Below are positions 1,602-33,681 of a DNA stretch of 37,978 bases, in pieces (positions within the stretch are counted from its first letter, which is position 1; each line of letters starts with the position of its first letter). The notes beneath the pieces are model-generated. The model ran no database searches, was not told the origin of the DNA, and was given only the letters and a program-made list of their open reading frames with translations. Origin of the DNA: a virus; UHGV virus genome UHGV-0283905, one strand, 5' to 3'. Made by a program: the position numbers and the translations under genes.

Positions 1602-1718
1602 GATTTACCTCTAAGGTAATTAAAAACCACATAAGACACGAAATCAATAGAGTTTAGAATATTTTATTACCCAACAGGTAATTATCAAGGCGTAAAAAAA
1701 TGCGCTATCGCGCTGGTA

Positions 1719-2519
1719 TTACTTGATAAATCCTGCCGCCTTTCCCCGCCTGTATTCCTCCATCAGCCACTGCGCCGGTGTTATTCCCCCAAGGGTGGCG
1801 GCGTTAGGCATGCACCCGAAACTTCGCCCTGGTGGATGGTAAACGTCTCTCCCTGTGTCCGGAGGCGTACTCATGGGTTCTGGCTTTGCCTGTATGCTGA
1901 TCACCGGATCGGGTATCTGCTGTCCGGAAGCCACCTTTTTCGCCCAATCATCGAGCAGCCTGCGCGCGTGTTTCTCAACCTCTATCTCGCTAAGCTGGCG
2001 CTGATACATTGCACGGCGGGTATCACATACGACCCAGTACATAACCGGATGCCGCCACGGGAATCTTTCGGGACCACCAGGATATAAACTTTTTTCCTTG
2101 CTGTACCGGTGAAACTCCGTCATCACATCGTCAATGGTGACGCCAAGAACCATCTTGCTGTCTTTGCACCACTTGATGAATTGCCCTGGCGACGGCCAGA
2201 ACGGAGATTCACTGGCGCGGGCGTGGCGCATACCAGCAGAAACCTGTTCACGGGTTCGGATCCCCCCTTCGGCAAACGCAGCAATCCACTGCTGTTTTGC
2301 AGCAACTTCCTGCTCTGGCGTCTTCAGGTTGGTTACCACTGCCGCCGGAAACAGTTGTTTCAGCTGTTTGAAAAGGGCATCAACAAGCCTCTCTGCTGAC
2401 ATGTTCACCACGTTGTCATTGTTGGTGTACTGATGCTCATAACCTGACATGCGAGAAAGGGCTTCTCCGTCACGGTTTTGTATCGCGGTAAAAACGTTGT
2501 TCACAAGAAATCCTCCCAT
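1719..2519 (-). CDS. replication protein P-like (DnaB helicase loader)
   Basis: Segment QQWIAAFAEGGIRTREQVSAGMRHARASESPFWPSPGQFIKWC closely matches my recollection of lambda P (QWVLAFRENGITTMEQVNAGMRVARRQNRPFLPSPGQFVAWC); lies directly downstream of the O-like gene. Confidence 0.8.
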   Translation of the reverse strand: MGGFLVNNVFTAIQNRDGEALSRMSGYEHQYTNNDNVVNMSAERLVDALFKQLKQLFPAAVVTNLKTPEQEVAAKQQWIAAFAEGGIRTREQVSAGMRHARASESPFWPSPGQFIKWCKDSKMVLGVTIDDVMTEFHRYSKEKSLYPGGPERFPWRHPVMYWVVCDTRRAMYQRQLSEIEVEKHARRLLDDWAKKVASGQQIPDPVISIQAKPEPMSTPPDTGRDVYHPPGRSFGCMPNAATLGGITPAQWLMEEYRRGKAAGFIK

Positions 2520-3292
2520 GCTTCAGGGCTGTTCCAGTGCGGAACGTTGTTATCAGGTAATGTTGATTGCTTCTGTCTGCTAATCTGCAGCCGCCTTGCC
2601 AGCTTCTGCTCCCACTGTGCCTGATGGTATGCCTTACCCTCAGCCATCCAGTAAATTCTGAACTCTGCAAGTTCCTGTGCCGTTGGCAGACTGTCCAGGT
2701 AGATCCCCTGCAAGGAGCTTTTCCGAAGAAAGTCATCTGATGGCTGCCATTGTTCATGCATGACAAATTTGCCTAATTGCCCTGGCCCACCAGGAGGAAC
2801 AAAGTTATTCATCACGGCGTTGTTTGCGCCGGGGTCATGAGGCACAGAATCCCCGTTTTTTGTCCTGCTCTCCCTCTCTTGGTTAAATGACTGGTTATAT
2901 GACTGGTTCTGGATCCCGTTTTTGGGATCATTCAACATCCCGTTTTTGGGTATATTCCCGTTTTCGGTAACATTACCGTTTTCGGGTTCATTGCCCCCCT
3001 CCCGGTTGCCTTTAATGTTCCCGTTTTTGGTTATATTAAGAGAGAAAACCCGCACTCTTTTCGTCGCTCCCTTTCTCTCTCCGGTATCTGAAATAAGCCC
3101 CATTTTCATGAGCGATATAAGCCCGGCCTGCACGGTTTTTTTATTCAGGCAAGTGTCTTTAACGAGGCGTTCTATGCTGGGGTAGCAGAGGTTATATTCA
3201 TCGGCTCTGTCAGCCATCGAGAGCAGTATGAGCTTTAATGACGAGCTACCTGGATCTGTCTCCCAGGCCCAATCTGTTGCATGTCTGCTCAT
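2501..3292 (-). CDS. replication initiator, lambda O-like, with origin iterons inside the coding sequence
   Basis: 263 aa; N-terminal winged-helix-like segment; central KNG/ENG peptide repeats encoded by DNA iterons; immediately upstream of the P-like gene. Confidence 0.65.
   Translation of the reverse strand: MSRHATDWAWETDPGSSSLKLILLSMADRADEYNLCYPSIERLVKDTCLNKKTVQAGLISLMKMGLISDTGERKGATKRVRVFSLNITKNGNIKGNREGGNEPENGNVTENGNIPKNGMLNDPKNGIQNQSYNQSFNQERESRTKNGDSVPHDPGANNAVMNNFVPPGGPGQLGKFVMHEQWQPSDDFLRKSSLQGIYLDSLPTAQELAEFRIYWMAEGKAYHQAQWEQKLARRLQISRQKQSTLPDNNVPHWNSPEAWEDFL
2912..3030. repeat. candidate origin iterons (about five copies of CCCGTTTT(T/C)GG) inside the O-like gene
   Basis: Copies begin near 2914, 2939, 2957, 2974 (variant) and 3020, followed by AT-rich TTATATTAAG; a separate tandem TGACTGGTT x2 lies at 2889..2910. 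Confidence 0.6.
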
Positions 3293-3307
3293 GATTAATC
3301 TCCGCTA

Positions 3308-3508
3308 TCAGCTTGAATATTGTGGGGAGGAATTAATCATGATCTGCTTAATCTCTGCCCTGATGCGACGGTTTGATTCCATGGTGCACTCAACACAGTG
3401 TCCGTTGTAAACCCAGCGTTCACTGTCATGTCCGTGCTTACATGGTTTTCCGGTGTAGTAGCGTTTAAGTCCGCGCTTTGCGGCATCAATACGTGTAATG
3501 ATTTCCAT
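3308..3508 (-). CDS. small zinc-ribbon protein (CxH.H ... CxxC)
   Basis: ORF table gives 3308..3571; internal ATG at 3508 (MEIITRID...) preferred because the longer N-terminus is hydrophobic and lacks an RBS; motif YYTGKPCKHGH...NGHCVEC. Confidence 0.4.
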   Translation of the reverse strand: MEIITRIDAAKRGLKRYYTGKPCKHGHDSERWVYNGHCVECTMESNRRIRAEIKQIMINSSPQYSS

Positions 3509-3658
3509 GGTAAGCCCTGTTATTAGTATTTGGATTACGGTTATTTTGTGCTGACACAAAAAAAAGATCAACCAGATTTGGTTTTTTATTACCTTTGAGG
3601 TACGGATAGATATGAAAAGACCGCCGGGTGGCGGTCTACAGAGGGTTGTAGCTGGATA

Positions 3659-3889
3659 TCATGAGTAGAAGAAGTATGCCAGTTCTGCTTTTGAGCGCAG
3701 CCATTGTCTTGTTTTACAGGCTTTAAAAAGCCCATTCATCAATACTTTACCTGGCATTTTGCGCTTACCTGTTAAGTGAGTCTGGATATAGTGACTCGTC
3801 GTTCCGGCTTCCTGTGCGAAGGCTTCACGCTCATCCGGAGTAAGTGCAAGCCAGTGCTTTTTGAAATCGAAATGTCCGTTATCGCTCAT
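3659..3889 (-). CDS. Cro-like small HTH regulator, first gene of the early-right operon
   Basis: 76 aa, divergent from the repressor gene across an intergenic region holding three dyad sites; HTH-like segment AFAQEAGTTSHYIQTHLTG. Confidence 0.45.
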   Translation of the reverse strand: MSDNGHFDFKKHWLALTPDEREAFAQEAGTTSHYIQTHLTGKRKMPGKVLMNGLFKACKTRQWLRSKAELAYFFYS

Positions 3890-3925
3890 AGCTATTGCCT
3901 GATATTTATTTCAGATAATAAATAT

Positions 3926-3988
3926 TCACCCATAAGGTAACAAAAATCAAGGATAGTTACCTATGGGGTGCATTTACCTGTTGGGTAA
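3926..3988. promoter_or_regulatory. OR-like operator cluster: three TTACC-N5-GGTAA-type dyad sites between the divergent Cro-like and repressor genes
   Basis: TCACCcataaGGTAA 3926..3940, TTACCtatggGGTGC 3957..3971 (one half degenerate), TTACCtgttgGGTAA 3974..3988. Confidence 0.6.
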
Positions 3989-4043
3989 TATTGCTTTAAA
4001 TTGAATCATCTACTGATTCATATATGAGGCGATTTTCCAGAAA

Positions 4044-4628
4044 ATGAAAAGTATCCAGGACGTCCGCAGGCAAAATCTCAACGACTTGATCGACCGTGAA
4101 TTCAATGGTGTTCAGACGCGGATGGCAGAAAAACTTGGAACTCAGGCAAATCTGGTAAACCGCTGGGCTCTTGGCAAGAAGGTTATCGGCGACCAGGTTG
4201 CACGAAAAATTGAAGCTGCCGCCAATAAACCCCGTAACTGGCTTGATATTGATCGTTCGCTTTCTCAGGAGGGTTTTCAGCCTGTCGGACCAAGCGACAT
4301 TGGTCAACTGGCGGCTCACAACCTGGAACGCTGGATGAGCGAAAGCCGCGACCTTTCAACACAGGGAAAACTTCACCGCGCATCCGGCGTAGCCCAGGTG
4401 ACAATCAGCCGCCTGTTAAACAATGAGGTCAGCGTTTCCATTTCCACCCTGGAGAATGTTGCATCCGCATTCGGGCGTCATGGCTATGAATTACTGATTC
4501 ACCCGCACGACCCTGCGACCATCAACTATGATCGCTCGCGCTACGCATTGTTACCCGAAACCGAGAAAGCAAAGATCGAAAGTTACATTGAATTTGTCAT
4601 CAACCAGAACGAAAAAAGCAAACAATAA
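4044..4628 (+). CDS. candidate immunity repressor, dual HTH (XRE-type), no peptidase S24 domain
   Basis: 194 aa; two HTH-like segments (about residues 20-45 and 115-140); no recognisable Ser/Lys autocleavage motifs; occupies the cI position opposite the Cro-like gene. Confidence 0.6.
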   Translation: MKSIQDVRRQNLNDLIDREFNGVQTRMAEKLGTQANLVNRWALGKKVIGDQVARKIEAAANKPRNWLDIDRSLSQEGFQPVGPSDIGQLAAHNLERWMSESRDLSTQGKLHRASGVAQVTISRLLNNEVSVSISTLENVASAFGRHGYELLIHPHDPATINYDRSRYALLPETEKAKIESYIEFVINQNEKSKQ

Positions 4629-4650
4629 AACCATAGTTTTCAGTAAGTAA

Positions 4651-4673
4651 GCCGCCTCATGGCGGCTTTTTTA
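4651..4673 (+). terminator. intrinsic terminator downstream of the repressor gene
   Basis: GCCGCC-tcat-GGCGGC hairpin followed by TTTTTTATT. Confidence 0.7.
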
Positions 4674-4685
4674 TTGCCAGATAGA

Positions 4686-4762
4686 TTACCTTACGGGTAA
4701 TTTTTTTAACTCATATCTATTGACACCAAACCAAATAAGCATAATTATTACCCCAACGGTAA
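4686..4762. promoter_or_regulatory. OL-like operators: two dyad sites upstream of the early-left operon
   Basis: TTACCttacgGGTAA 4686..4700 and TTACCccaacGGTAA 4748..4762, between the repressor terminator and the first early-left ORF. Confidence 0.55.
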
Positions 4763-4781
4763 CAGACCGAGGTAACAAGTT

Positions 4782-4934
4782 ATGCAGTGGAAAATCATCA
4801 ACGGTTGGTACTGCGTTACTGCATGCGGATTCATGAGCTGGAAGTTCCGCACCTTACAGGAAGGCATTAAGTGGGCTTTCGTCAGCAAAGAAGCTCGCGA
4901 TGTGGCCAACGATAACGAGATATGGGAGGGCTGA
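4782..4934 (+). CDS. small hypothetical protein (50 aa), first early-left gene; not in the ORF track
   Basis: ATG 4782 preceded by GAGGT at about 9 nt; translation MQWKIINGWYCVTACGFMSWKFRTLQEGIKWAFVSKEARDVANDNEIWEG; stop TGA 4932..4934. Confidence 0.35.
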   Translation: MQWKIINGWYCVTACGFMSWKFRTLQEGIKWAFVSKEARDVANDNEIWEG

Positions 4935-4936
4935 TA

Positions 4937-5236
4937 ATGAACGTTAATCAGCAGAAAAATCTTCAAAAAATCATGCTGGCATTCGACAAGGACTACCGCC
5001 TGTCAGAACAGCTATATGACCGACAAGTTGAACTGATTGAGAGCATCCGACTTCATCAACTGTCCTCAACTTTCGACGTTGTAACAGGCAAAGGCGTTCG
5101 TCAGGAAGTACTGGAGGCTGCTAAAGACAGCCCTGAGTTCGAAGAACTGATGGATGCCTATCGGCGAGAGGCAATGGCAATTATCGCCCGCTGGGATCTG
5201 GCGGATCAGCTTGATGGGCAGAGGGACGCGGCATGA
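4937..5236 (+). CDS. hypothetical early protein (99 aa)
   Basis: ORF table start 4922; ATG 4937 preferred (GGGAGGG 6 nt upstream); stop overlaps exonuclease start (ATGA at 5233). Confidence 0.5.
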   Translation: MNVNQQKNLQKIMLAFDKDYRLSEQLYDRQVELIESIRLHQLSSTFDVVTGKGVRQEVLEAAKDSPEFEELMDAYRREAMAIIARWDLADQLDGQRDAA

Positions 5237-6132: not shown

Positions 6133-6141
6133 GGAGAAAAA

Positions 6142-8708: not shown

Positions 8709-9959
8709 TTATTCCCCCGCCATCCACTTCTCAAACTTCGACGGGGAGAACGGAATCAGATCCGTATGCTCCCCGTCAATCCAAGAATCAATCATATCGG
8801 CCCACTGCTGCAACATGTAGGCGCGCTGTCTGGCGTATTCCGCTTTGTTATATACGGCGCGCACACCTTTCTGCTCATGTGCCAGAGCCTTTTCAATCCA
8901 GTCTGAAGGATAACCAGCCTCATGCAACAACGTACTGGCTGTACGGCGCATATCGTGTACGGTGAAGTCCTGAATATGCTCACCATCTTCATTTATTATT
9001 TTCACCGTTCTGTCGATCAGAGAGTTCAGTGCGGCATTAGATAATGGCTTCCGGAAATTGTAACGACCAGGAACCAGGTATTCACTTCCACCAGCGCACA
9101 TCTGCAACCCGACCAATATATCCTGTGCCTGTTTAGGCAGGTAAATAACGTGCGCCCGGCTTCCTTTCATGCGGTCTGAAGGAATTGTCCATGTCCATTT
9201 TTTAAAATCTATTTCATCCCACGTTGCATTGGTGAATTCGCCCTTACGAACCATAGTGATAAGCACCAGTTTTAAAGCCATTTTCATAGTGCCCATAGCA
9301 CCAATGGCATCCAGCGTGCGGAAGAACAGGCCAATTTCTTCTGGTGTCAGTGTTCGCTCTCGTGGTTTAAATATGGCGATAGACGAAGGTTTAATGTCAG
9401 CCGCAGGATTAAACAAACCATGACCACGGTCATTGGCGTGACGGTATACGCTGCTGATGATCTCCCTGGCCTGCACTGCTGTTGCCCGGCCACCGCGTTC
9501 GACAATCCGGTCACACAAATCACGAACCATCGATGTGGTAATTTCAGCCATCATTTTATTGCCAAGAACCGGAAGTATGTCACGGTCGATCACCGCCTGT
9601 TTCATTGCGCGGGTACTGTCAGCCAGGATGACGTGTTTCATATAACTGTCGGTATGTACCGCAAACGTCTCGGCACCACGAATCTTTTTGATACCGTCAC
9701 GTTTAGCCGCAGCCGGTGACTGGCCTGCTTTAAGCAGCTTCTTTGCAGCAATCAGTTCTTCTCGCGCTTCTGCCAGGCTGATACCGTCACGCCCATACTG
9801 CCCGATTACCAGCGTTTCGCGGCGACCGTTGATACGGTAGTCGTAGCGAAACGAGACCGTGCCTGACGTAAGCACAGCCACATACAGCCCGTCACGATCG
9901 GAAACTTTGTACAGTTTGTCCTGTGGCTTGAGGTTTTTTAATTTTGTATCGGTAAGCAC
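8709..9959 (-). CDS. int: tyrosine integrase, P4-type
   Basis: 416 aa; N-terminal arm-binding-like segment LKPQDKLYKVSDRDGLYVAV; C-terminal catalytic region with HDMRRTASTLL and AHEQKGVRAVY (catalytic Tyr). Confidence 0.9.
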   Translation of the reverse strand: MLTDTKLKNLKPQDKLYKVSDRDGLYVAVLTSGTVSFRYDYRINGRRETLVIGQYGRDGISLAEAREELIAAKKLLKAGQSPAAAKRDGIKKIRGAETFAVHTDSYMKHVILADSTRAMKQAVIDRDILPVLGNKMMAEITTSMVRDLCDRIVERGGRATAVQAREIISSVYRHANDRGHGLFNPAADIKPSSIAIFKPRERTLTPEEIGLFFRTLDAIGAMGTMKMALKLVLITMVRKGEFTNATWDEIDFKKWTWTIPSDRMKGSRAHVIYLPKQAQDILVGLQMCAGGSEYLVPGRYNFRKPLSNAALNSLIDRTVKIINEDGEHIQDFTVHDMRRTASTLLHEAGYPSDWIEKALAHEQKGVRAVYNKAEYARQRAYMLQQWADMIDSWIDGEHTDLIPFSPSKFEKWMAGE

Positions 9960-10001: not shown

Positions 10002-10016
10002 ATACCTTTAAGGTAA
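10002..10016. promoter_or_regulatory. dyad site ATACCtttaaGGTAA about 43 bp upstream of the integrase start
   Basis: Variant of the TTACC-N5-GGTAA motif. Confidence 0.45.
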
Positions 10017-12074: not shown

Positions 12075-12146
12075 AACGAAACCCGTTTATTTGCAAACAC
12101 CCTGCTTCAGGAAAAGTATACCGCGCAACAACACACCATTTACGGT

Positions 12147-14609
12147 TCAATTCCCTGTTAATTGCAAAACTTGCTCTTCCAGCTTTTTAACCCTGCGTCT
12201 CATCATCGCAGATTCCAGAATCAGAGCCTCTTCATAACGGATACCGTAACATTCACCAGCCTCGACGGCTTCGCGTACCAGAACCTTTGTCTGTATAAGT
12301 GGGTAAACTCCTGCAGAATGCTCTTCTTCCGTCACATCCCTGTATTCTGCCGGGGTCTCATTCCACTTGTCATAACAGATAAATGCCAGTCGTGACACAT
12401 CTATGCCTTCATTCTGAAATACACTGATAACATGCTGCGCAACTGCACCAAAGTGCCATCTTGCTCCGTCTTTACCTTTCACTTCGATCCTGTCAAGGTA
12501 CTGGTATGAAACCCATTCCACTCTTTCCCATGCGTCCAGTATTTTCTCATCAATAACCTCTGGAGCAGTCTTGAAACGCGCATCGGACAGCACCGTAAAC
12601 GCTGACTGGGTAAATCCCCCCGACCATGCACGACCAGCCAACCCAAGAGAATAAGTATTCGTTGTCGATGGTGTCATGGCTGAATCAGAAAACTGTATAT
12701 ATTCTGAATTTCCAGTAGATATTCGAATATTTCCATTTATTAGCGACATAGTGCCTTTAGTATTATCACTATTGAATAATTTCAATTGCGAACTTATACC
12801 GCCTCCCACAGCCAGAGATACATCGCCTTCAGCAAGCATTCTGAATTTATCTGCAGAAACAAGCGTCTGGTTAGCAAGGTTAAAATATTTAACCCACCAT
12901 TCAAAACGCCCTGACATAGTCCCAACGTACTGACCAAGCGCAGGGACGTGAACAACATTGCTATTTGTAGTGCCGTCTATACTGGAAATACCAGTCACCG
13001 CTGATGCAGAACTCAGAATATTATTTCTGTCACCCGGATGTTTAATTTCAACAAAGTTCCTGATACACCCTTCCTCGAAGGTAACCACGCCGGAAGAACT
13101 ATACATGGGGAATATTGACGCATAATTACTGCGTGCAGCATCTAAGAAACGAATGGTTGTAGATGCCTGCAGATCTCCTGATTCATTTTTCCCATCACAC
13201 CCAGTCATTAGAATATTACTGGCAATATTATTATTTCCCTGAACGGTGACGCCGTGCGCCTGCTTTGCGTCCGATTCAGAGTAATCAACCAGCACATCCG
13301 AAATCAGGTTACCAGTCCCCTTGCCAACAACTACTGCGGCGTATTTTGGGTTGTTAGCCATTACACTGCTAATGATATTATTCGTTGGGGCAGTTTCCGT
13401 CTCAGTTCCATTGTAAACAACGTGCTGACACTCTTCACCAATAACATTGCTGACAATGTTATATTTTGCTGCTGTTTTAAGTTCCACTGCACCAAACTGA
13501 GGATAATTTCTGGCTATCACACCATCAATTAGCGTATTTTGCGATGAATCAAAAAGCACACAACCTGCTTTTTTATTATTTGCGAACCCTAAATACTCTC
13601 CTCTTATATCTCTAACAATGTAACCTGACGGAATACCATTATCCGGATAAGCGATCAAGCTAAATCCTGGTCCTCGCGTATTTGTAAATCTGATATTTTT
13701 AACCGATACATCATGGCCACCTGAAAATGACACCTGGTGTCCCTGCACACTATCATCTGATTTATTTCCCATAATTGTTAGCGTACTAAGCATGCCACCA
13801 TCGGGCATGTTAAAAACCAGATGATTACCATCTCTGTCATACTGTTTTATCGTTCCCCCACCTGTTCCGTACAAGCCACAACGTGAAAGAGAAACTAAAG
13901 ATGTATTGAATACCCCTTCCGGAACAAAAACACTGCTAAACGAATGTAATGATTTTGTAAAAGCATCCTTGTTATCATTTAAGATTCCATTTTGAGCTCC
14001 AAAATCCTTAATGCTGACACCATCACGCATCTTATCCTGGAACGTTCTGTATACCGCTCCAGAACCATACTGAATAAACCAACCAAAACCACCAATAACT
14101 CCGGCGATTGCAGCATCGACATAATTACGCATTGAGCGATTATTTACAGCGTCCTGCTCAAGTGATGGATCGGCAAGGTTAGATATTCTGTTTTGCTTTG
14201 CATCGTAATATTTTGCAAGCAAAGATGGTTTCATCAATGCACGTCTGAACCACCCAAAACATCGCTGGATCAGCATCGTCAGGTAGTCAAATGCATCCTC
14301 ATGAACTTCGGGGAAAAATTTTCCCTGATTGCGAAGATCAGTCTCCTGCACCACATCAAGCACACGCTCTATCGTGATTCGCCAGCCAGCAGCAAGCGGC
14401 GACGGAAGAACCACTGCACCGCCACTATAAGTTCCCGCCCCTGTTACCGTATAACCAGCATCCAGCACTAGTTTTGTAACGTTACCGTTAAGGTCAGACA
14501 CCTGAACAACCAGGTCGGATTTTTTGAAAATACGGAAGGTATACGGAAATGATGTCGTAACGCCGTTACCTGTGTATTCGTTGTGGTCAACTTCGGTTGA
14601 GACCGTCAT
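12147..14609 (-). CDS. tailspike / tail fibre with central beta-helix (depolymerase-like) and C-terminal S74-type intramolecular chaperone
   Basis: 820 aa; conserved N-terminal particle-binding segment; AT-richer middle with beta-helix-like repeats; C-terminal LSDARFK...RWHFGAVAQ autoproteolytic chaperone motif. Confidence 0.85.
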   Translation of the reverse strand: MTVSTEVDHNEYTGNGVTTSFPYTFRIFKKSDLVVQVSDLNGNVTKLVLDAGYTVTGAGTYSGGAVVLPSPLAAGWRITIERVLDVVQETDLRNQGKFFPEVHEDAFDYLTMLIQRCFGWFRRALMKPSLLAKYYDAKQNRISNLADPSLEQDAVNNRSMRNYVDAAIAGVIGGFGWFIQYGSGAVYRTFQDKMRDGVSIKDFGAQNGILNDNKDAFTKSLHSFSSVFVPEGVFNTSLVSLSRCGLYGTGGGTIKQYDRDGNHLVFNMPDGGMLSTLTIMGNKSDDSVQGHQVSFSGGHDVSVKNIRFTNTRGPGFSLIAYPDNGIPSGYIVRDIRGEYLGFANNKKAGCVLFDSSQNTLIDGVIARNYPQFGAVELKTAAKYNIVSNVIGEECQHVVYNGTETETAPTNNIISSVMANNPKYAAVVVGKGTGNLISDVLVDYSESDAKQAHGVTVQGNNNIASNILMTGCDGKNESGDLQASTTIRFLDAARSNYASIFPMYSSSGVVTFEEGCIRNFVEIKHPGDRNNILSSASAVTGISSIDGTTNSNVVHVPALGQYVGTMSGRFEWWVKYFNLANQTLVSADKFRMLAEGDVSLAVGGGISSQLKLFNSDNTKGTMSLINGNIRISTGNSEYIQFSDSAMTPSTTNTYSLGLAGRAWSGGFTQSAFTVLSDARFKTAPEVIDEKILDAWERVEWVSYQYLDRIEVKGKDGARWHFGAVAQHVISVFQNEGIDVSRLAFICYDKWNETPAEYRDVTEEEHSAGVYPLIQTKVLVREAVEAGECYGIRYEEALILESAMMRRRVKKLEEQVLQLTGN

Positions 14610-14713
14610 GTTAAATCTCCAGATAGTCGCAGCACCCGTTGCGCCGCATATCTGGTTATTCTATTACCCAAAAAACCATATATGGATAGAAAGACTGTGA
14701 ATATGAATAGATA

Positions 14714-14728
14714 TTACCTTTCAGGTAA
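14714..14728. promoter_or_regulatory. dyad site TTACCtttcaGGTAA upstream of the LexA-box promoter
   Basis: Exact motif; identical in sequence to the site at 33667..33681. Confidence 0.5.
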
Positions 14729-14767: not shown

Positions 14768-14783
14768 CTGTATAAATATACAG
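14768..14783. promoter_or_regulatory. LexA (SOS) box CTGTATAAATATACAG
   Basis: Fits the enterobacterial CTGT-N8-ACAG consensus with AT-rich centre; 22 bp upstream of the RBS of the 85-aa gene. Confidence 0.75.
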
Positions 14784-14805: not shown

Positions 14806-15063
14806 ATGCAGCAGTATCACTATCCACTGGAAGAGGGATTTACCGAAAGGATTCACACGCCGGGAGGCGTCAGGTCACTGGTGGAGGGATCGCACTTGAT
14901 GAAATTACTCCGGGATCTCGATAAGGATGGATTTAATGTCGATGGCCCACTTGCCGAACTGACTGCACTGATTAACTACGTCACCAGCTCACAGATGTCT
15001 ATGCGGGATCTGCAAACACATCTCGACTATTGTGCCGAACAATTACGAAAACAAACCAGATAA
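14806..15063 (+). CDS. small SOS-controlled protein, candidate antirepressor (85 aa)
   Basis: ATG 14806 preferred (GGAGAAG 6 nt upstream; table start 14791); paralogous to the C-terminal domain of the Bro-N protein. Confidence 0.55.
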   Translation: MQQYHYPLEEGFTERIHTPGGVRSLVEGSHLMKLLRDLDKDGFNVDGPLAELTALINYVTSSQMSMRDLQTHLDYCAEQLRKQTR

Positions 15064-15094
15064 GGTTTGCAATTACCAAGTGGAGTGCTTATAT

Positions 15095-15109
15095 TTACCT
15101 TTGAGGTAA
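15095..15109. promoter_or_regulatory. dyad site TTACCtttgaGGTAA
   Basis: Exact motif, flanked by inverted GGAGTGC / GCACTCC. Confidence 0.45.
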
Positions 15110-15200
15110 ATTTACATCGCACTCCTCTTATGCCATAGTAATCGGGCACTGGCAAAATCCAGTGCCGGGATTGGCGTCCCGGGTTACTAAGTGGCGCATA

Positions 15201-15222
15201 CCACGCCAGACGTGGTTTTTTT
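15201..15222 (+). terminator. intrinsic terminator inside the intergenic region between the two antirepressor-locus genes
   Basis: CCACG-ccaga-CGTGG hairpin followed by TTTTTTT. Confidence 0.7.
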
Positions 15223-15351
15223 ATGCGTTAAGCACAGCTCAGCTATATCCGAATTATGGTGGGCTGGGCAGGGGTCCGAAAGGACGCCGGTACCACTTAG
15301 GCCGGTACGCCAACCTTGTCCAGTTCACCACCAGTAATTGGCGTTGCGGTG

Positions 15352-15365
15352 GTGATTAAAATCAC
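15352..15365. promoter_or_regulatory. 14-bp palindrome GTGATTAAAATCAC immediately upstream of the Bro-N gene RBS
   Basis: Perfect dyad; ACTAAGTGG direct repeats at 15186..15194 and 15364..15372. Confidence 0.4.
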
Positions 15366-15383
15366 TAAGTGGAGATAACCACC

Positions 15384-16094
15384 ATGGCTAATGCTCAAAC
15401 TGCCATCTTCAAATTTGAATCTGTTAACCCTATCCGTTCCATCATTATCGATGGCCAACCATGGTTTGTAGCCCAAGACGTTTGTAGTGCGCTGCGTATC
15501 CAAAACGTCACCCAAGCACTTGAAAAACTGGATGATGATGAAAGGTCTATGTTCAACATAGGGCATGAACATCGTGCAATTTTTGACAGCCGAGTAAAAG
15601 AGATCAACATCATCTCCGAGTCAGGCCTCTACACACTGATCCTCCGCTGCCGCGACGCAGTGACACCAGGCACTATCCCCTACCGCTTTCGCAAATGGGT
15701 TACAGGTGATGTTCTTCCTCAGATCCGTCGCACCGGAAGTTACATTAAAAACTCGCTCCCGCAGGAAGAACGCATAAAGATGGTTGCCGACCAGGTAGCC
15801 AGCGCCACAGCATCAGCAGTGATGCAGGCAATGAAGGTAGAGAACAAAACCTACAGCGCCCCACTGAAGCCCGGCTACCGCAGCCTGATTCATTCGCCGT
15901 CTGGTGTTCTTGGCCTGACGGAGAACTCACTGCTGATGAATCTGCTGAACCAGTTACAGGACGACGGGCATGACGTATCGGGCGCGGCGGCGGAGCTGAC
16001 CACCATGTTCTGCTACATCGTCGGTGTGAGCAAATGCCTGCGTGATATCCAGACGCACGCGGAGTACATCAGCGACAAAGCAGGGTTCTTCTGA
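15384..16094 (+). CDS. Bro-N domain protein (antirepressor-type) with C-terminal domain paralogous to the upstream 85-aa protein
   Basis: ATG 15384 with GGAGA RBS (table start is GTG 15369); N-terminus FKFESVNPIRSIIIDGQPWFVAQDVCSALRI fits Bro-N. Confidence 0.75.
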   Translation: MANAQTAIFKFESVNPIRSIIIDGQPWFVAQDVCSALRIQNVTQALEKLDDDERSMFNIGHEHRAIFDSRVKEINIISESGLYTLILRCRDAVTPGTIPYRFRKWVTGDVLPQIRRTGSYIKNSLPQEERIKMVADQVASATASAVMQAMKVENKTYSAPLKPGYRSLIHSPSGVLGLTENSLLMNLLNQLQDDGHDVSGAAAELTTMFCYIVGVSKCLRDIQTHAEYISDKAGFF

Positions 16095-16160
16095 CGGGCG
16101 GCGGCACAGGGATGTGCCTTTAAAATAATCATTGGCGATGTGATGTAGATTCGCGTAATA

Positions 16161-16175
16161 TTACCTTAAAGGTAA
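16161..16175. promoter_or_regulatory. dyad site TTACCttaaaGGTAA overlapping the RBS region of the 55-aa gene
   Basis: Exact motif, followed directly by AGGAGG and ATG 16188. Confidence 0.5.
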
Positions 16176-16187
16176 AGGAGGCGCGAT

Positions 16188-28804: not shown

Positions 28805-28848
28805 TCCTGCAATAAAGGGGCCGAAGCCCCTTGTCGGATTCGCGAGGC

Positions 28849-29193: not shown

Positions 29194-29194
29194 C

Positions 29195-29632: not shown

Positions 29633-29683
29633 CTTCTTTCTCCATTAGTGGGTCTGTTACGACCCACAGGTTAATAACAGGCG

Positions 29684-30676: not shown

Positions 30677-30684
30677 TTCCTCTC

Positions 30685-31386
30685 TTATTTGCCATAGAGC
30701 ACTTCGGCCGCACTACGCTGGCCTTCATTACCACCGGTGACCATGCCATCTTCAGACATCGCCTTTCCGATTTTCACGAACGTTTTGACCAGATCAGGGT
30801 GATTACCCAGCCCGGTGGTGTTCAGATATTCTTTGAGTTCAGGTGTCCCGAACTGGTCAAGCGCACGCTGTGCGGCGCTAAGGTTAGAAATCAACTTGTC
30901 GCCACCGATTTCTTTGTCAGCTTTTACATCCGCAGCCCACTGCTCGGTTGTTTTCTGCCAGGCTTCTGCCTGGCGCTGCTGAACACCTGCCAGAATCTTC
31001 GGATAAGCATCAACCAGCTTTTGCGCTTGCTCGTTGGTCAGGTTAAGTTCTCGCGCCACCGGCTCGAATTCCTTCAACGCTTCTGTATCCAGCTCTACGC
31101 CTTCGGCAGCCTGAAACTCGTACTTCTCAGGCGCACCCTCTGGTTTATCGCCGTCCTTTTTTTCATCCTGCTTATCGTTTTCAGGCTTTTTGTCATCAGC
31201 AGGTTTATCGCCATCAGCAACAGGTTGTGGCTTATCACCTTCCTGTTGTGATGGATCACCAACTGGAGCAGGGTTATCACCTGCAGGCGCTGACGGTTCT
31301 GACGCAGCCGGAGCTGCTCCACCATCGACTGGTTGCTCATTGCAAAGACGGCGATACAGCAAACGCTCAAATAAACTCATGATCAC
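30685..31386 (-). CDS. scaffolding protein
   Basis: 233 aa, acidic, Pro/Ala-rich N-terminal third and Lys/Asp/Glu-rich region; between portal and capsid genes. Confidence 0.55.
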   Translation of the reverse strand: MIMSLFERLLYRRLCNEQPVDGGAAPAASEPSAPAGDNPAPVGDPSQQEGDKPQPVADGDKPADDKKPENDKQDEKKDGDKPEGAPEKYEFQAAEGVELDTEALKEFEPVARELNLTNEQAQKLVDAYPKILAGVQQRQAEAWQKTTEQWAADVKADKEIGGDKLISNLSAAQRALDQFGTPELKEYLNTTGLGNHPDLVKTFVKIGKAMSEDGMVTGGNEGQRSAAEVLYGK

Positions 31387-31679
31387 TCCTGTTCACTGGC
31401 CTCTTTGGCCATCTTCAAATACTGTTCAGGGCAATGCGCCATAACGCGCTGAAACAGTTCCAGCGCCAGATTGCGTTGCCCCTCATTAAATGCCATTGCC
31501 ATAGCGTCCATCGGTGAGATAGCGGAAAACACACGGCCTTTCTCCAGCACCGACCAGACAACGCGACGCCCCTGTTCACTGCTCATGACAAAGCGAATGT
31601 CATCAATTTCACGCTGCGCCATGTCACGTTGCTTACGGGCGTTTTCTTCTTTCAGTTGATCGTCTTCGTAATCTGTCAT
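31383..31679 (-). CDS. hypothetical protein between portal and scaffold
   Basis: 98 aa, overlapping neighbours by 4 nt at both ends. Confidence 0.4.
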   Translation of the reverse strand: MTDYEDDQLKEENARKQRDMAQREIDDIRFVMSSEQGRRVVWSVLEKGRVFSAISPMDAMAMAFNEGQRNLALELFQRVMAHCPEQYLKMAKEASEQE

Positions 31680-33355
31680 TGTGATTGCCCACCCTGACCA
31701 CTAACTGCATTCGCCATAGCTGACAAAACACTCGGATCCGAAGTTTTAGCTTCGCTTAGCGTCTTGGCCCCCTGTGCCGCCGCCATCCCCATCGCCATCA
31801 TTTGTTGCTGCTGTTGTTGCTGTGCCCGTTGCTGGCGAGCCTGCTCAACCTGTTCCTGCGGAACAATGACGGTTGGAGACACTCCGGACATATCAGCGAA
31901 TGCATCGATCGCCTGATCAACGTTGAGTTTGTCGAGAGCTTCTGGTTTCGCTTGCGCAAGTTGACCAATGAAGTTGACCGTAGACGCCAGACTGGACAGG
32001 CCGATAGACTTCTGCGCCTGAGCCATGACGGAAATGTATTCGACCTTCAGGGGCATACCTTCCATCGCGTCAGGCGGTGGCGGCAGCATGTTTTTACGCA
32101 CCATCATCGAGAAAGCGCGGTCAATGAGAGGATTAAGACATTCGTCGTTCAGACGCTCCAGAACCGGCCCCAACATCAGAAGTTTTTCTTCTTTCATTTC
32201 GATCACTGCTTCAACAGGCATCGAGCGGGTATTGATGTTCTGCAACATCATGAACAGATCGACAAAGTAGGCGCTGTTAATGATTTGACGAGTGTCCTGA
32301 ATGTCTGCTACCAGATCTGCTGTACTGGGGTTAACCAGATAAGCAGGCCTGAAGCCATCCTGACCAGTAATCTGATCGATATACGTGATGTCACCAGGAA
32401 GAAGGGAGGCGCGCTGATTCTTGAGGGAAGTCGGAGCAACCATCGGCGGATTGGTGGCTTTATCAATCAACTGCGACTTGCGCTCCTGGAGAAGTTGCAA
32501 TGCCTTAACAGGTCCAAGCGCCAGCATACCCGGGCATGATGATCCATAAACATCTTCGCCATTAACTTCCCAGCGCGGAGCCATAATTGGAAACTCATCA
32601 AATCCGGACTCACGCAACAACTTGTCGTTATCGCCACCAACCTCGTAATAAACCGATTTGAATGGCTTGTTCTTGCTATCCAGCTTCGATGTATCGCGGT
32701 CAATGTTCGGGTAAACCGAATGCATCACTTCAATCCACTTCTCGTAGGTGCCGCTTTCCCACATGCTTTTTACGGATTCGCTGACGTTATTTAGTCCGAA
32801 CTCCTGAACAAGCTGACGAACAGTCATAGAGAACTTGCGAAAACAGGTGTCCACACTGCCACGAGGTGAGTTAGCCAGGTAGTAACTTCCTATCGGGAAT
32901 GGCATTGTACGAATGATGTCCTCGTCATCCTCCAGCACCGCCATTGCGCCAGTGCTGTATGTGCCGAGGCTTCCGTATAACTGCGGCAGCGACTGATAGA
33001 GATTCGACTTATTGAACATATCGTTCATGCGGTTCTGCACCGCCTCAAGCCACAACTTAACAGGGCCATAATCCATCATTTCAGGATCTGGCGTAGCCAG
33101 GCGAAACCACGGACGCGCGGGGCTTGTGATGCCTGACATCATGCCGCTGGCGAGAGTGCGCGCCGCCATAGTCCCGGTCGAATCAATAATGCGTGTATTG
33201 CGTCGATCGTTACGGTTGACCTCAGAAGTCAGAAAGCGGGAACCACGCGGGTTGATGTAATCACTCAACTCGCGCCAGTGCGGCTCGAACGACTGACGCT
33301 CGCTTTCAAGTTGTGCGAACTGTTTGTTCAATCGCTCTTTAGTTGTTTCCGCCAT
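31676..33355 (-). CDS. portal protein (T7 gp8-like head-to-tail connector)
   Basis: 559 aa; C-terminal Gln-rich tail QQRAQQQQQQQMMAMGMAAAQG resembles the T7 gp8 C-terminus from memory. Confidence 0.8.
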   Translation of the reverse strand: MAETTKERLNKQFAQLESERQSFEPHWRELSDYINPRGSRFLTSEVNRNDRRNTRIIDSTGTMAARTLASGMMSGITSPARPWFRLATPDPEMMDYGPVKLWLEAVQNRMNDMFNKSNLYQSLPQLYGSLGTYSTGAMAVLEDDEDIIRTMPFPIGSYYLANSPRGSVDTCFRKFSMTVRQLVQEFGLNNVSESVKSMWESGTYEKWIEVMHSVYPNIDRDTSKLDSKNKPFKSVYYEVGGDNDKLLRESGFDEFPIMAPRWEVNGEDVYGSSCPGMLALGPVKALQLLQERKSQLIDKATNPPMVAPTSLKNQRASLLPGDITYIDQITGQDGFRPAYLVNPSTADLVADIQDTRQIINSAYFVDLFMMLQNINTRSMPVEAVIEMKEEKLLMLGPVLERLNDECLNPLIDRAFSMMVRKNMLPPPPDAMEGMPLKVEYISVMAQAQKSIGLSSLASTVNFIGQLAQAKPEALDKLNVDQAIDAFADMSGVSPTVIVPQEQVEQARQQRAQQQQQQQMMAMGMAAAQGAKTLSEAKTSDPSVLSAMANAVSGQGGQSQ

Positions 33356-33369
33356 TTCAATGACTCCGG

Positions 33370-33576
33370 TTACTGACCAAGCAGCGTTTTACCGCTGGTA
33401 TTAGCGGTTGATGTGTCGCCCTGAGAACCGGTAAGCAGCGTAGAACTACGACCAGCAGCAGCGCGACGGCGACGAGTTTCTTCGTAGCGGGCATCAACAA
33501 CGGCGGCATCCTGCTCCTGTGGTGCTGCCTGAACTTCTGGTGTTGCAGGCACTGACGGTGAGCTACCCATGCACAT
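33370..33576 (-). CDS. hypothetical small protein upstream of portal
   Basis: 68 aa, GGAG 8 nt upstream of ATG 33576; overlapping 79-aa frame 33357..33596 judged less likely. Confidence 0.35.
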   Translation of the reverse strand: MCMGSSPSVPATPEVQAAPQEQDAAVVDARYEETRRRRAAAGRSSTLLTGSQGDTSTANTSGKTLLGQ

Positions 33577-33666
33577 ATCAATGACTCCGTACGCAATTAA
33601 ATTATTACCAATTTAACCACATATGATTTATTTATCGTAGACAGTTGACATTTAATGCACGAATTA

Positions 33667-33681
33667 TTACCTTTCAGGTAA
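33667..33681. promoter_or_regulatory. dyad site TTACCtttcaGGTAA; possible -35 TTGACA at 33644..33649
   Basis: Exact motif at the start of the non-coding region leading to the tRNA. Confidence 0.45.

What the first reader, a model, noticed from the sequence alone, without database searches (positions are those of the whole stretch)
1605..33681. A 15-bp dyad motif TTACC-N5-GGTAA recurs at 13 promoter-proximal sites across the genome
I found the motif at 1605, 1667, 3589, 3926, 3957, 3974, 4686, 4748, 10002, 14714, 15095, 16161 and 33667, always in intergenic DNA and usually 3-70 bp upstream of a start codon. Three tandem copies lie between the divergent Cro-like and repressor genes (OR-like) and two precede the early-left operon (OL-like), which fits an immunity operator. 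The rest sit in front of int, the antirepressor locus, the 55/147-aa cassette, the tRNA/DUF2829 unit and two early-right genes. Spacers fall into two classes: CAACA-like at 1667, 3974 (as reverse complement) and 4748, versus TTTNA at 3589, 10002, 14714, 15095, 16161, 33667. That could mean two proteins (for example repressor and Cro-like) with different preferences, or one regulator silencing accessory promoters as in the stoperator arrangement of mycobacteriophage L5. I cannot compute the chance expectation here, but a specific 10-bp dyad occurring 13 times in 38 kb, never inside a coding region, is far above random.
Basis: partly seen in the sequence, partly recalled or inferred. Interest (0 to 1): 0.75.

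Follow-up and report, generated by a model that had tools for sequence, protein, structure and literature searches.

The report
Repressor operator sites of an epsilon15-like prophage
The repeated TTACC-N5-GGTAA motif is real and is almost certainly the set of binding sites through which this epsilon15/phiV10-type phage's repressor shuts off its promoters, an arrangement already annotated in phage epsilon15, so it is ordinary.

Summary
The motif is real. There are 10 exact copies (0.03 expected), all in the 8% of the window that is non-coding, and no exact copy at any other half-site spacing from 0 to 12. Three sites were missed (36752, 36734, 14482).

The window is a Uetakevirus genome, about 97% identical to phiV10. 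The same dyad sits at the same places in eight relatives. The epsilon15 RefSeq record already labels seven copies as repressor binding sites.

The 194-aa repressor is a full-length homologue of SPC32H Rep (PDB 5D50). Its partner Ant, with a LexA box in front, is also present.

Eight or nine dyads overlap core promoter elements. In six, the last T of a -10 hexamer is the first T of TTACC. Others are partners 62 or 17-18 bp away, which fits a repressor that binds as a tetramer.

The "two spacer classes, two proteins" idea is not supported. The mycobacteriophage L5 stoperator comparison holds only loosely.

Verdict: already known in kind, low to moderate interest. One unexplained extra is a CCATATATGG-like palindrome at fixed distances from the dyads.

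The parts
1605..1619 (.). Exact dyad. It is the promoter-distal partner of the early-right distal unit (PR2). It abuts a conserved TTGATT-17-TTTAAT promoter-like element, and its spacer holds the GAGG ribosome-binding site of the DUF1064 gene.
   Evidence: It lies 62 bp from 1667, a spacing also found in phiV10, Tyrion, epsilon15, SPC32H, BUCT711, TL-2011b and L008, but 18 bp in L007.
1667..1681 (.). Exact dyad filling the spacer of the promoter TTGATA-16-TAAAAT (1688..1661, minus strand), just after the terminator that follows the P replication gene.
   Evidence: (10 of 12 promoter match).
3589..3603 (.). One-mismatch dyad (GGTAC). It lies 15 nt after the cro-like terminator and upstream of gp42 and the replication genes. 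The weakened outer base is conserved in relatives.
3926..3940 (.). One-mismatch dyad (TCACC) inside the promoter of the Cro-like gene (TTGTTA-17-TATTAT, 3943..3915, minus strand). This is the OR site nearest PR, and the TCACC variant is conserved in all relatives.
3957..3971 (.). Two-mismatch dyad, the middle OR site, 17 bp from 3974.
   Evidence: epsilon15 and SPC32H have exact dyads with the same 17-bp spacing. On its own it is within background.
3974..3988 (.). Exact dyad, the OR site nearest rep. It overlaps a possible -10 (TAATAT, 3985-3990) for rep transcription.
   Evidence: The promoter assignment is inferred from the sequence.
4686..4700 (.). Exact dyad, the upstream partner at PL. 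It lies 18 nt after the rep terminator and 20 nt before the PL -35.
   Evidence: The 62-bp spacing to 4748 is conserved.
4748..4762 (.). Exact dyad fused to the -10 of PL (TTGACA-17-AATTAT, 4720-4748, plus strand). It covers the transcription start of the early-left operon.
   Evidence: (10 of 12).
10002..10016 (.). One-mismatch dyad (ATACC) 42 nt upstream of int. The assignment is ambiguous, because the matching epsilon15 stretch overlaps an annotated integrase arm-type site and is not annotated as a repressor site.
   Evidence: the same mismatch is conserved in all relatives.
14714..14728 (.). Exact dyad between the divergent tail-fibre and ant genes, 39 nt upstream of the LexA box of ant. 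It does not overlap a recognisable core promoter.
   Evidence: The orthologous epsilon15 site 19895-19911 is annotated as a repressor site.
15095..15109 (.). Exact dyad fused to the -10 of TTGCAA-17-TATATT (15067-15095, plus strand), the promoter of the isrK / C4 RNA / Bro-N::Ant unit.
16161..16175 (.). Exact dyad fused to a putative -10 (TAATAT, 16156-16161), 12 nt before the 55-aa and 147-aa accessory cassette.
   Evidence: In TL-2011b the same 82-bp promoter-plus-dyad segment precedes different cargo.
33667..33681 (.). Exact dyad fused to the -10 of a plus-strand promoter (TTGACA 33645-33650; -10 AATTAT or TACCTT) that reads toward tRNA-Arg and the 98-aa gene. It is also about 90 bp upstream of the structural operon on the other strand.
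   Evidence: (TTGACA and its distance to the dyad are kept in 6 of 7 genomes). epsilon15 site 2931-2947 is annotated as a repressor site.
36734..36748 (.). One-mismatch dyad (GGTTA on the gene strand), 18 bp from 36752. It ends at the terS start codon and contains its probable ribosome-binding site.
36752..36766 (.). Exact dyad directly after the terminator 36786-36803. It is fused to an extended -10-like TGGTACTAT on the minus strand, in front of terS and the late operon.
   Evidence: epsilon15 site 12-27 is annotated as a repressor site.
4044..4628 (+). rep, the 194-aa repressor and the presumed binder. It has an N-terminal helix-turn-helix domain and a C-terminal tetramerisation and Ant-binding domain. 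It has no S24 peptidase domain.
   Evidence: PDB 5D50_A, E 3.5e-42, residues 1-190; Pfam; recognition helix NLV(N/S)RW invariant.
3659..3889 (-). Cro-like 76-aa helix-turn-helix protein, divergent from rep. It is a possible second binder of the same sites.
   Evidence: phrog_35, transcriptional repressor; 58-84% identity, helix-turn-helix invariant; always found together with rep.
14806..15063 (+). ant, the small antirepressor that should release Rep from all operators.
   Evidence: PDB 5D50_E Ant, E 6e-47.
14768..14783 (.). LexA box CTGTATAAATATACAG in front of ant.
   Evidence: It is conserved in relatives.
15384..16094 (+). Bro-N protein with an Ant-like C-terminal domain, a possible second antirepressor. 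It lies downstream of isrK (15146-15222) and C4 RNA (15252-15335) and behind dyad 15095.
   Evidence: 41% identity to Ant over 78 aa, E 1e-16.

Best explanation
The dyads are the operators of the phage's immunity repressor Rep, the 194-aa protein encoded at 4044-4628.

Binding (inferred). A pair of Rep N-terminal helix-turn-helix domains reads one A-TTACC-N5-GGTAA-T dyad. The half-sites are 10 bp apart, one helical turn.

Repression (inferred from position). Most dyads lie on core promoter elements, so bound Rep would keep RNA polymerase off. Six are fused to a -10 hexamer whose last T is the first T of TTACC: PL, the distal early-right promoter, the isrK/C4/Bro-Ant promoter, the 55/147-aa cassette promoter, the tRNA-side promoter and the terS promoter. 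Two fill a promoter spacer: the Cro-like gene's promoter and PR2.

Pairing (inferred). Rep of the homologous phage SPC32H is a tetramer with two DNA-binding pairs. The remaining dyads can therefore serve as second anchors, 62 bp away at PL and PR2 or 17-18 bp away at OR and terS. That would give cooperative or looped complexes.

Induction (inferred from homology). DNA damage removes LexA from the box in front of ant. Ant then binds the Rep C-terminal domain, and Rep leaves all operators at once. The Cro-like protein may use some of the same sites.

Shown here: enrichment, position, conservation and the homologies. Not shown here: physical binding, looping and the effect on transcription.
For: - Enrichment and specificity: 10 exact copies against 0.03 expected. 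Exact copies occur only at N5 among spacings 0-12. All lie in the 8% of non-coding DNA. Lambda and ZF40 have none.
- Conservation: 6-11 exact copies at the same loci in phiV10, TL-2011b, Tyrion, epsilon15, SPC32H, BUCT711 and two enterobacterial prophages.
- Prior annotation: the epsilon15 RefSeq record labels seven of them 'protein_bind repressor / lysogeny'.
- The repressor system: rep matches SPC32H Rep (5D50_A, E 3.5e-42). ant matches 5D50_E (E 6e-47). A LexA box lies in front of ant. Rep has no S24 peptidase domain.
- Recognition helix: residues N36, L37, V38, R40 and W41 are invariant across alleles of 42-78% identity, which matches the invariant half-site.
- The module travels together: distant phages whose CI has a Rep-like N-terminal domain (about 40% identity) and which carry a Cro-like gene have TACC-N5-GGTA (pOW20-A, 4 copies against 0.07 expected) or TTACC-N4-GGTAA (PseuP_224, 4 against 0.04) flanking cI.
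- Promoter overlap: searches place the dyads on predicted promoters. In 47 of 73 unique exact sites, a -10-like hexamer ends on the first T of the dyad, against 0-17 in neighbouring registers.
- Pair spacing: 62 bp and 17-18 bp recur across genomes.
- Papers held: the ZX5 repressor, reported there as identical to phiV10's, cut endolysin and holin transcripts by more than 99.9% when over-expressed (PMC9782041). SPC32H Rep is described as binding palindromic DNA as a tetramer, and Ant as disrupting it (PMC9638917; PMC9986798).
Against: - No binding or expression data exist for this phage or for these sites.
- The epsilon15 features are predictions and cover only 7 of its 15 matches. They omit the OR cluster.
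- The primary epsilon15 and SPC32H papers are not in the library. The operator sequence used in those experiments could not be read.
- Rep and the Cro-like protein always occur together, and the Cro-like protein is the more conserved of the two. Computation cannot say which one binds.
- Five credible dyads (3589, 4686, 10002, 14714, 36734) do not overlap a recognisable sigma-70 core promoter.
- 10002 coincides with a predicted integrase arm site in epsilon15.
- Promoter calls are consensus matches only. Promoter-like hits as a whole are not enriched in the window.
Confidence: 0.85

Rival explanations
1. The dyads are mainly the sites of the 76-aa Cro-like protein, the lytic regulator, and Rep acts elsewhere or only at a subset.
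For: The Cro-like protein has an invariant helix-turn-helix and is more conserved (58-84%) than Rep (42-78%), as is the motif. It co-occurs with the motif everywhere, including pOW20-A.
Against: The distant phages also keep the Rep-type N-terminal domain in their CI, so this does not separate the two proteins. Sites at ant, terS, accessory cassettes and the tRNA promoter are what a prophage repressor needs to silence. The epsilon15 annotators assigned them to the repressor. Over-expressed repressor silences the lysis genes (PMC9782041). Shared use, as with lambda CI and Cro, is likely. Exclusive use by the Cro-like protein is not.
Confidence: 0.07
2. There are two discrete operator classes defined by the spacer (CAACA-like and TTTNA), read by two different proteins.
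For: In the window, CAAC or GTTG occurs in 4 of 10 spacers (1667, 3974, 4748, 36752), all at main early or late promoters. 'AAC-GGTAA' recurs at the terS and OL-proximal sites of several relatives.
Against: Over 74 unique sites the spacer positions carry 0.16-0.23 bits, apart from a central A/T at 0.82 bits. The orthologues of 1667 read TGTTG, TAATG, TGATG, CAGTG and AAAAG. Spacer composition differs between repressor alleles: A as the first spacer base in 5 of 74 half-sites against 27 of 60. That points to tuning of one protein's affinity or specificity.
Confidence: 0.1
3. The sites act as L5-type stoperators. The bound repressor blocks elongating RNA polymerase inside transcription units instead of blocking initiation.
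For: Four dyads lie just downstream of terminators or promoters where read-through would pass: 1605, 3589, 36734 and 36752. The sites are dispersed genome-wide.
Against: The sites are perfect palindromes, so they cannot carry the orientation dependence that defines stoperators. Eight or nine overlap -10 or spacer elements. There are about 15 sites, all at the starts of units and none inside operons. A roadblock role for a subset remains possible, at roughly 0.2.
Confidence: 0.05
4. The motif is not a protein operator. It would be an RNA hairpin, a packaging (pac) signal at terS, or a host-factor site.
For: The dyads can form small hairpins of -3.2 to -6.9 kcal/mol. Two copies lie at the 5' end of terS, where some phages have pac sites.
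Against: The hairpins are weak, have no U tract, and most are not far from shuffled controls. The stem sequence never covaries and is always TTACC/GGTAA, which argues for sequence-specific recognition. Several copies lie upstream of transcription starts. One motif at 15 promoters cannot be a pac site. The motif tracks a phage gene module across host genera (Escherichia, Salmonella, Klebsiella, Enterobacter, Psychrobacter, Pseudomonas), not a host.
Confidence: 0.03

Closest known systems
Repressor binding sites annotated in Salmonella phage epsilon15 (RefSeq NC_004775.2; Kropinski et al. 2007, not readable here)
   Same: The motif is the same (A)TTACC-N5-GGTAA(T). The loci are the same: in front of terS, in front of gp3, between ant and the tail fibre, the OL cluster, and in front of the distal early-right gene. 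The gene order is the same and the repressor is orthologous at 43% identity.
   Different: The epsilon15 record marks only 7 sites and not its OR cluster. The window has sites that epsilon15 lacks (15095 at the isrK/C4/Bro-Ant unit, 16161 at the accessory cassette). It lacks the site that relatives carry between the lysis genes and the serotype-conversion genes. Spacers are more G/C-tolerant in the phiV10-type allele.
SPC32H Rep-Ant-LexA switch (PDB 5D50, 5D4Z; Kim & Ryu 2013 and Kim et al. 2016, recalled from memory and from PMC9638917 and PMC9986798)
   Same: Homologues of Rep and Ant are present. A LexA box lies in front of ant. Rep has no autocleavage domain. The SPC32H genome carries the same dyads.
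   Different: Rep is only 42.7% identical. The window also has a second Ant-domain protein fused to Bro-N, behind isrK and C4 RNAs. Binding, tetramerisation and disassembly by Ant are untested for this allele.
Phage P1 C1 repressor with dispersed operators and the immI c4-ant module (established knowledge, from memory)
   Same: One repressor controls many operators spread over the genome. One of them lies in front of an antisense-RNA-controlled antirepressor module. The window has a C4 RNA match and a dyad at that unit's promoter.
   Different: P1 operators are asymmetric 17-mers and C1 is unrelated to Rep. The sites here are symmetric dyads.
Mycobacteriophage L5 gp71 stoperators (established knowledge, from memory)
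   Same: Many copies of a repressor site lie outside the immunity region, in short intergenic gaps, and silence the prophage genome-wide.
   Different: L5 sites are asymmetric 13-mers, number more than 20, are oriented with transcription and block elongation. The sites here are palindromes, about 15 in number, and lie mostly on -10 or spacer elements of promoters.
Lambda CI/Cro with OR1-3 and OL1-3 (annotated in NC_001416)
   Same: A three-site cluster lies between divergent repressor and cro-like genes. A second cluster lies at the early-left promoter. Shared use by two proteins and cooperative binding are likely.
   Different: Lambda operators occur only at OR and OL, whereas this phage has about 9 further sites. 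CI is cleaved with RecA, whereas Rep is predicted to be inactivated by Ant. PL lies downstream of rep on the same strand. The distant relative pOW20-A, whose CI has a Rep-like N-terminal domain joined to a lambda-CI-like C-terminal part, keeps the lambda-like two-locus layout.

Membership tests
epsilon15/SPC32H-type Rep operator system (Uetakevirus immunity) | Full-length Rep homologue: N-terminal helix-turn-helix domain plus C-terminal tetramerisation and Ant-binding domain | tested here: met
   5D50_A, E 3.5e-42, residues 1-190 aligned; alignment with 6 alleles.
epsilon15/SPC32H-type Rep operator system (Uetakevirus immunity) | Small antirepressor Ant homologue with a LexA box at its promoter | tested here: met
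   5D50_E, E 6e-47. CTGTATAAATATACAG at 14768-14783, 22 nt before ant.
epsilon15/SPC32H-type Rep operator system (Uetakevirus immunity) | Repressor lacks a RecA-dependent autocleavage (S24) domain | tested here: met
   only helix-turn-helix families are hit, and no Peptidase_S24.
epsilon15/SPC32H-type Rep operator system (Uetakevirus immunity) | Same palindromic operator at the same loci as the sites annotated 'repressor' in epsilon15 | tested here: met
epsilon15/SPC32H-type Rep operator system (Uetakevirus immunity) | Rep physically binds the dyads and Ant releases it | not testable with these tools
   Needs EMSA, footprinting or ChIP. The primary SPC32H papers are not held.
L5-type stoperators | Asymmetric site whose orientation follows the direction of transcription | tested here: not met
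   The sites are perfect inverted repeats.
L5-type stoperators | Sites lie within transcription units, away from promoters, and block elongation | tested here: inconclusive
   Eight or nine dyads overlap predicted -10 or spacer elements. 1605, 3589 and 36734 could act as roadblocks. Function was not tested.
Lambda-type OR/OL immunity operators | Operators confined to two clusters flanking the repressor gene | tested here: not met
   About nine credible sites lie elsewhere in the genome. The distant relative pOW20-A does meet this feature.
Lambda-type OR/OL immunity operators | Three sites between divergent repressor and cro genes | tested here: met
   3926, 3957 and 3974, with 1, 2 and 0 mismatches. 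Spacings of 31 and 17 bp match relatives.
P1 C1-type dispersed operators | Asymmetric 17-bp operator and a C1-family repressor | tested here: not met
   The site is a symmetric dyad. Rep matches only helix-turn-helix families and 5D50.

The most novel reading that the evidence does not exclude
The dyads may be only one half of a composite, phased control unit. A second palindrome (CCATATATGG-like) sits at fixed distances from them, about 20 and about 42 bp. It lies between the two dyads of each 62-bp pair and over the -35/spacer region of the gp3, tail-fibre and lysis promoters.

This could be the site of a second, unidentified factor: the Cro-like protein, a late activator or a bending protein. 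With the Rep tetramer it would form a small looped complex, and it could also define the still unknown late promoters of epsilon15-like phages.

A related reading concerns immunity. Repressor alleles down to 42% identity keep the same half-site and recognition helix. Specificity in this genus may therefore be frozen by the dispersal of operators and may reside in the spacer or in the Ant-Rep contact instead.
Probability: 0.3. Interest if true: 0.55.

Novelty: already known. Interest (0 to 1): 0.27.

Why it matters
It gives a ready map of the repressor-controlled promoters of a phiV10-type prophage of E. coli. The map includes the antirepressor units, an exchangeable accessory-gene slot, the tRNA unit and the packaging/late operon. 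This is useful for annotating such prophages and for engineering phiV10-based reporter phages.

It also shows that the operator set of this genus is unusually wide and unusually constant across hosts.

It does not change the current understanding of phage immunity. The motif and its assignment to the repressor are already in the epsilon15 record, and the repressor-antirepressor mechanism has been solved for SPC32H.

Tried and rejected
- Primary papers. I tried to read the epsilon15 genome paper and both SPC32H papers by DOI, PMC id and PubMed id. None is held.
- Literature search for the motif. A full-text search for the motif written four ways found nothing.
- Homology search. A search with the Rep N-terminal 80 residues returned only near-identical fragments and gave no distant contexts.
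- Genome-collection scan. It gave only two further prophages.
- Separating Rep from the Cro-like protein by co-occurrence. This failed. They occur in the same 35 phage records, and both distant phages keep both proteins.
- Testing the p55-like regulator as the binder of the second palindrome. Phage ZF40 has a 67%-identical homologue but no such palindromes at its late genes. This is inconclusive.
- RNA hairpin or terminator reading. Rejected because the stems are weak and there is no U tract.
- Two-mismatch matches as extra weak operators. Rejected because other half-site spacings give as many.
- NarL 7-2-7, IHF and DnaA-box resemblances. I considered these by eye and dropped them because the spacing or sequence does not fit. 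No tool test was run.

Full report
**1. Observation**

TTACC-N5-GGTAA occurs exactly 10 times in the window: 1605, 1667, 3974, 4686, 4748, 14714, 15095, 16161, 33667 and 36752. Dinucleotide-preserving shuffles give 0.03. With one mismatch allowed there are 15 matches against 0.57 expected.

- 9 exact sites;
- 3 with one mismatch (3589, 3926, 10002);
- 1 with two mismatches (3957).

It misses 36752 (exact), 36734 and 14482.

I added a control by varying the distance between the half-sites from 0 to 12:
- Exact copies number 10 at N5 and none at any other spacing.
- One-mismatch copies number 5 at N5 against 0-5 elsewhere.
- Two-mismatch copies number 24 at N5 against 13-31 elsewhere, so they are background.

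With a gene map transferred from phiV10, non-coding DNA is 8.0% of the window. It holds all 10 exact sites and five imperfect ones.

14482 lies inside the tail-fibre gene and is probably chance.

The two terS sites count as intergenic only if terS starts at the ATG near 36734. Four annotated relatives start it there, and a strong terminator (36786-36803) lies inside phiV10's longer ORF.

**2. What the window is**

It is a complete or nearly complete genome of an epsilon15-like temperate podophage (genus Uetakevirus). It is about 97% identical to phiV10 over most of its length and lies in the opposite orientation to the phiV10 record.

**3. The same motif in relatives, and a prior annotation**

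The dyad is equally over-represented in eight relatives: phiV10, TL-2011b, Tyrion, epsilon15, SPC32H, Klebsiella phage BUCT711, and prophages of Pseudescherichia and Pseudocitrobacter.

It always falls at the same places:
- a pair in front of terS;
- one site in front of the structural operon;
- one or two around ant;
- one in front of int;
- a pair or triplet at the early-left promoter;
- a triplet between rep and the cro-like gene;
- one after the cro-like terminator;
- a pair in front of the distal early-right genes.

The epsilon15 RefSeq record already carries seven 'protein_bind: repressor / lysogeny' features. Each coincides with one of these dyads.

Lambda and Pectobacterium phage ZF40 have no exact copy.

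**4. The proteins**

- *Rep.* The 194-aa product of 4044-4628 aligns over its whole length with the crystallised repressor of Salmonella phage SPC32H (5D50_A, E 3.5e-42). It has no S24 autocleavage domain.
- *Ant.* The 85-aa product of 14806-15063 matches the SPC32H antirepressor (5D50_E, E 6e-47). A canonical LexA box, CTGTATAAATATACAG, lies at 14768-14783.
- *What held papers say.* They describe SPC32H Rep as binding palindromic sites as a tetramer, with the two DNA-binding pairs drawn from different dimers. They describe Ant as breaking this assembly (PMC9638917; PMC9986798).
- *From memory.* The primary papers (Kim & Ryu 2013; Kim et al. 2016) report that Rep is not cleaved on SOS induction and that LexA controls ant. 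I could not read them.
- *Functional evidence.* For phage ZX5, whose repressor is reported as identical to phiV10's, over-expression abolished free phage and cut endolysin and holin transcripts by more than 99.9% (PMC9782041).
- *Recognition helix.* Across seven Rep alleles of 42-78% identity, the predicted recognition helix NLV(N/S)RW and neighbouring residues are invariant. The N-terminal domain is more conserved than the C-terminal domain, 53% against 40% in the window-epsilon15 comparison. This matches the invariance of the half-site.

**5. An independent line of evidence**

Two unrelated phages have a CI whose N-terminal domain is about 40% identical to Rep's. It is fused to a longer C-terminal part whose sequence looks like the autocleavage domain of lambda CI (read by eye, not scanned against Pfam), and both phages also encode a Cro-like homologue.
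- Psychrobacter phage pOW20-A has four exact TACC-N5-GGTA dyads (0.07 expected in the 8-kb locus). All flank CI, and there are no others in its 40.8-kb genome.
- Pseudomonas phage PseuP_224 has four TTACC-N4-GGTAA dyads flanking cI, against 0.04 expected.

So the half-site travels with this repressor-domain/Cro-like module. Spreading the sites over the whole genome is a feature of the Uetakevirus lineage.

**6. Anatomy**

*Sites fused to a -10 hexamer.* In six cases the last T of a -10-like hexamer is the first T of TTACC:

| Dyad | Promoter |
|---|---|
| 4748 | PL, TTGACA-17-AATTAT, 10 of 12 |
| 15095 | TTGCAA-17-TATATT |
| 33667 | AATTAT, with a TTGACA kept in 6 of 7 genomes |
| 16161 | TAATAT |
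| 1605 | TTGATT-17-TTTAAT, conserved in Tyrion and epsilon15 |
| 36752 | extended -10 TGGTACTAT, conserved |

These rest. Over 73 unique exact sites from nine genomes, 47 have a -10-like hexamer in exactly this register. Neighbouring registers give 0-17, and the only other register with a fixed T gives 17. These counts include orthologous sites and are not independent.

*Sites in a promoter spacer.* 1667 fills the spacer of TTGATA-16-TAAAAT (10 of 12). 3926 lies in the promoter of the Cro-like gene. 3974 overlaps a possible -10 for rep.

*Partner sites.* 4686 and 1605 lie 62 bp, about six helical turns, from 4748 and 1667. This spacing is kept at both loci in nearly all genomes. 3957/3974 and 36734/36752 lie 17-18 bp apart.

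*Consensus.* The symmetrised consensus is A-TTACC-(t)(t)-W-(a)(a)-GGTAA-T. Only the central spacer base carries much information, 0.82 bits.

**7. Mechanism**

The best-supported picture has three parts.
- Rep tetramers bind the dyads through pairs of N-terminal domains. They occlude the -10 and start region of at least eight promoters and use a second nearby dyad for cooperative or looped binding.
- The prophage is therefore silent at its early, late, antirepressor and accessory units.
- SOS induction removes LexA from ant. Ant then strips Rep from all sites at once.

Enrichment, position, conservation and homology are shown here. Binding, looping and transcriptional effect are inferred.

The Cro-like protein is more conserved than Rep and always accompanies it. 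It may share some sites, as Cro does in lambda.

**8.

*Two spacer classes.*
- In the window, four spacers contain CAAC or GTTG, all at main promoters.
- Orthologous sites in relatives have different spacers.
- The spacer is nearly uninformative overall.
- Spacer composition does differ between repressor alleles. A is the first spacer base in 5 of 74 half-sites in phiV10/Tyrion-type phages and in 27 of 60 in epsilon15/SPC32H/BUCT711-type phages.
- I read this as affinity or specificity tuning of one protein, not as two proteins.

*L5 stoperators.*
- The likeness is limited to dispersal.
- These sites are palindromes placed on promoters.
- Only a few (1605, 3589, 36734) are positioned where a roadblock would make sense.

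**9. Comparison and novelty**

The feature is the orthologue of the predicted epsilon15 repressor sites and belongs to the SPC32H-type Rep-Ant-LexA switch. All computable defining features are met, and binding is not testable here.

It works like P1 C1, where one repressor controls many dispersed operators, including one in front of a C4-RNA-controlled antirepressor unit. It is not a member of that family, of the L5 family or of the lambda family.

I rate it as already known and of low to moderate interest.

**10. What remains open**

A second palindrome, CCATATATGG-like, lies at quantised distances from dyad centres in all nine genomes: 19.5 bp in 11 cases and 40.5-43.5 bp in 25 cases.
- In the window alone there are 4 such cases against 0.10 expected, though the offsets were chosen after the fact.
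- It lies between the dyads of the 62-bp pairs.
- It lies 8-9 nt upstream of -10-like hexamers at the gp3, tail-fibre and (in relatives) lysis promoters, which lack a good -35.
- Its binder is unknown. The ZF40 comparison did not implicate the p55-like regulator.

This palindrome, together with the constancy of the half-site across very divergent repressor alleles, is the only part that might hold something new.

Noticed in passing
window 14676-14685 (perfect), 3572-3581, 4018-4027, 15056-15065, 33617-33626; weaker at 1626-1635 and 4730-4739; the same places in L001-L008: A second palindrome, CCATATATGG-like and usually followed by TT on the late strand, sits at fixed offsets from the repressor dyads: about 19.5 bp, about 41.5 bp, and 52.5 bp at gp3. 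It lies between the dyads of the 62-bp pairs. It also precedes -10-like hexamers at the gp3, tail-fibre and lysis promoters, which lack a good -35. Its binder is unknown. It may mark activator-dependent late promoters or a second operator type.
   Followed up: partly
window 15095-16094: This is a P1 immI-like unit. A promoter with a repressor dyad is followed by an isrK sRNA match (15146-15222), a C4 antisense RNA match (15252-15335) and a Bro-N protein. The C-terminal 78 residues of that protein are 41% identical to the small antirepressor Ant. The phage therefore seems to carry two Ant-domain proteins under different controls. In phiV10 the matching gene appears truncated.
   Followed up: partly
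window 36734-36812; L001 41-120: The phiV10 annotation starts terS at a TTG about 25 codons too early. That extension contains a strong terminator (36786-36803) and both dyads. Tyrion, epsilon15, SPC32H and TL-2011b start terS at the ATG just after the second dyad.
   Followed up: partly
window 34004-34080 and 34010-34261: A tRNA-Arg (anticodon TCT) on the plus strand overlaps the ORF equivalent to phiV10 p04 on the minus strand, so p04 is probably not a real gene. A second CTGT-N8-ACAG (possible LexA box) lies at 34196-34211, 68 bp before the 98-aa ORF at 34279.
   Followed up: no
window 16095-16176 versus L006 (TL-2011b) 33332-33419: The 82-bp promoter-plus-dyad segment in front of the 55/147-aa cassette is shared with TL-2011b. 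There it precedes different cargo, next to a YafO-family toxin gene. The cassette itself occurs only in HEMP4 and phiv142-3. This looks like a repressor-controlled slot for exchangeable accessory genes.
   Followed up: partly
window 12075-12146 and 12147-14609: The window lacks the O-antigen modification gene (oac or equivalents) that relatives carry between the tail fibre and the lysis genes. It also lacks the dyad found there in phiV10, Tyrion, epsilon15 and SPC32H. The tail fibre matches phiV10 only over its first 161 residues, at 68% identity.
   Followed up: no
L012/L013 (pOW20-A) 8762-9706; L011 (PseuP_224) 3922-4836: Two unrelated phages have a CI with a Rep-like N-terminal domain, a longer C-terminal part resembling the lambda CI autocleavage domain (by eye), and a Cro-like gene. 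They use the same half-site but only around cI. In PseuP_224 the half-site spacing is 4 bp instead of 5.
   Followed up: partly
window 10002-10016; L003 26873-26896: The dyad-like site in front of int keeps the same single mismatch in all relatives. It overlaps a 10-bp element annotated as an integrase binding site in epsilon15, within GGTA-rich repeats of the attP arm. It may be an Int arm site, a weak operator or both.
   Followed up: no
all exact sites in window and L001-L008: Spacer composition differs by repressor allele. In epsilon15/SPC32H/BUCT711-type phages the spacers are almost purely A/T, and A often follows TTACC. In phiV10/Tyrion-type phages C/G are common and A is rare at that position. 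This is a possible basis for immunity specificity despite identical half-sites.
   Followed up: partly
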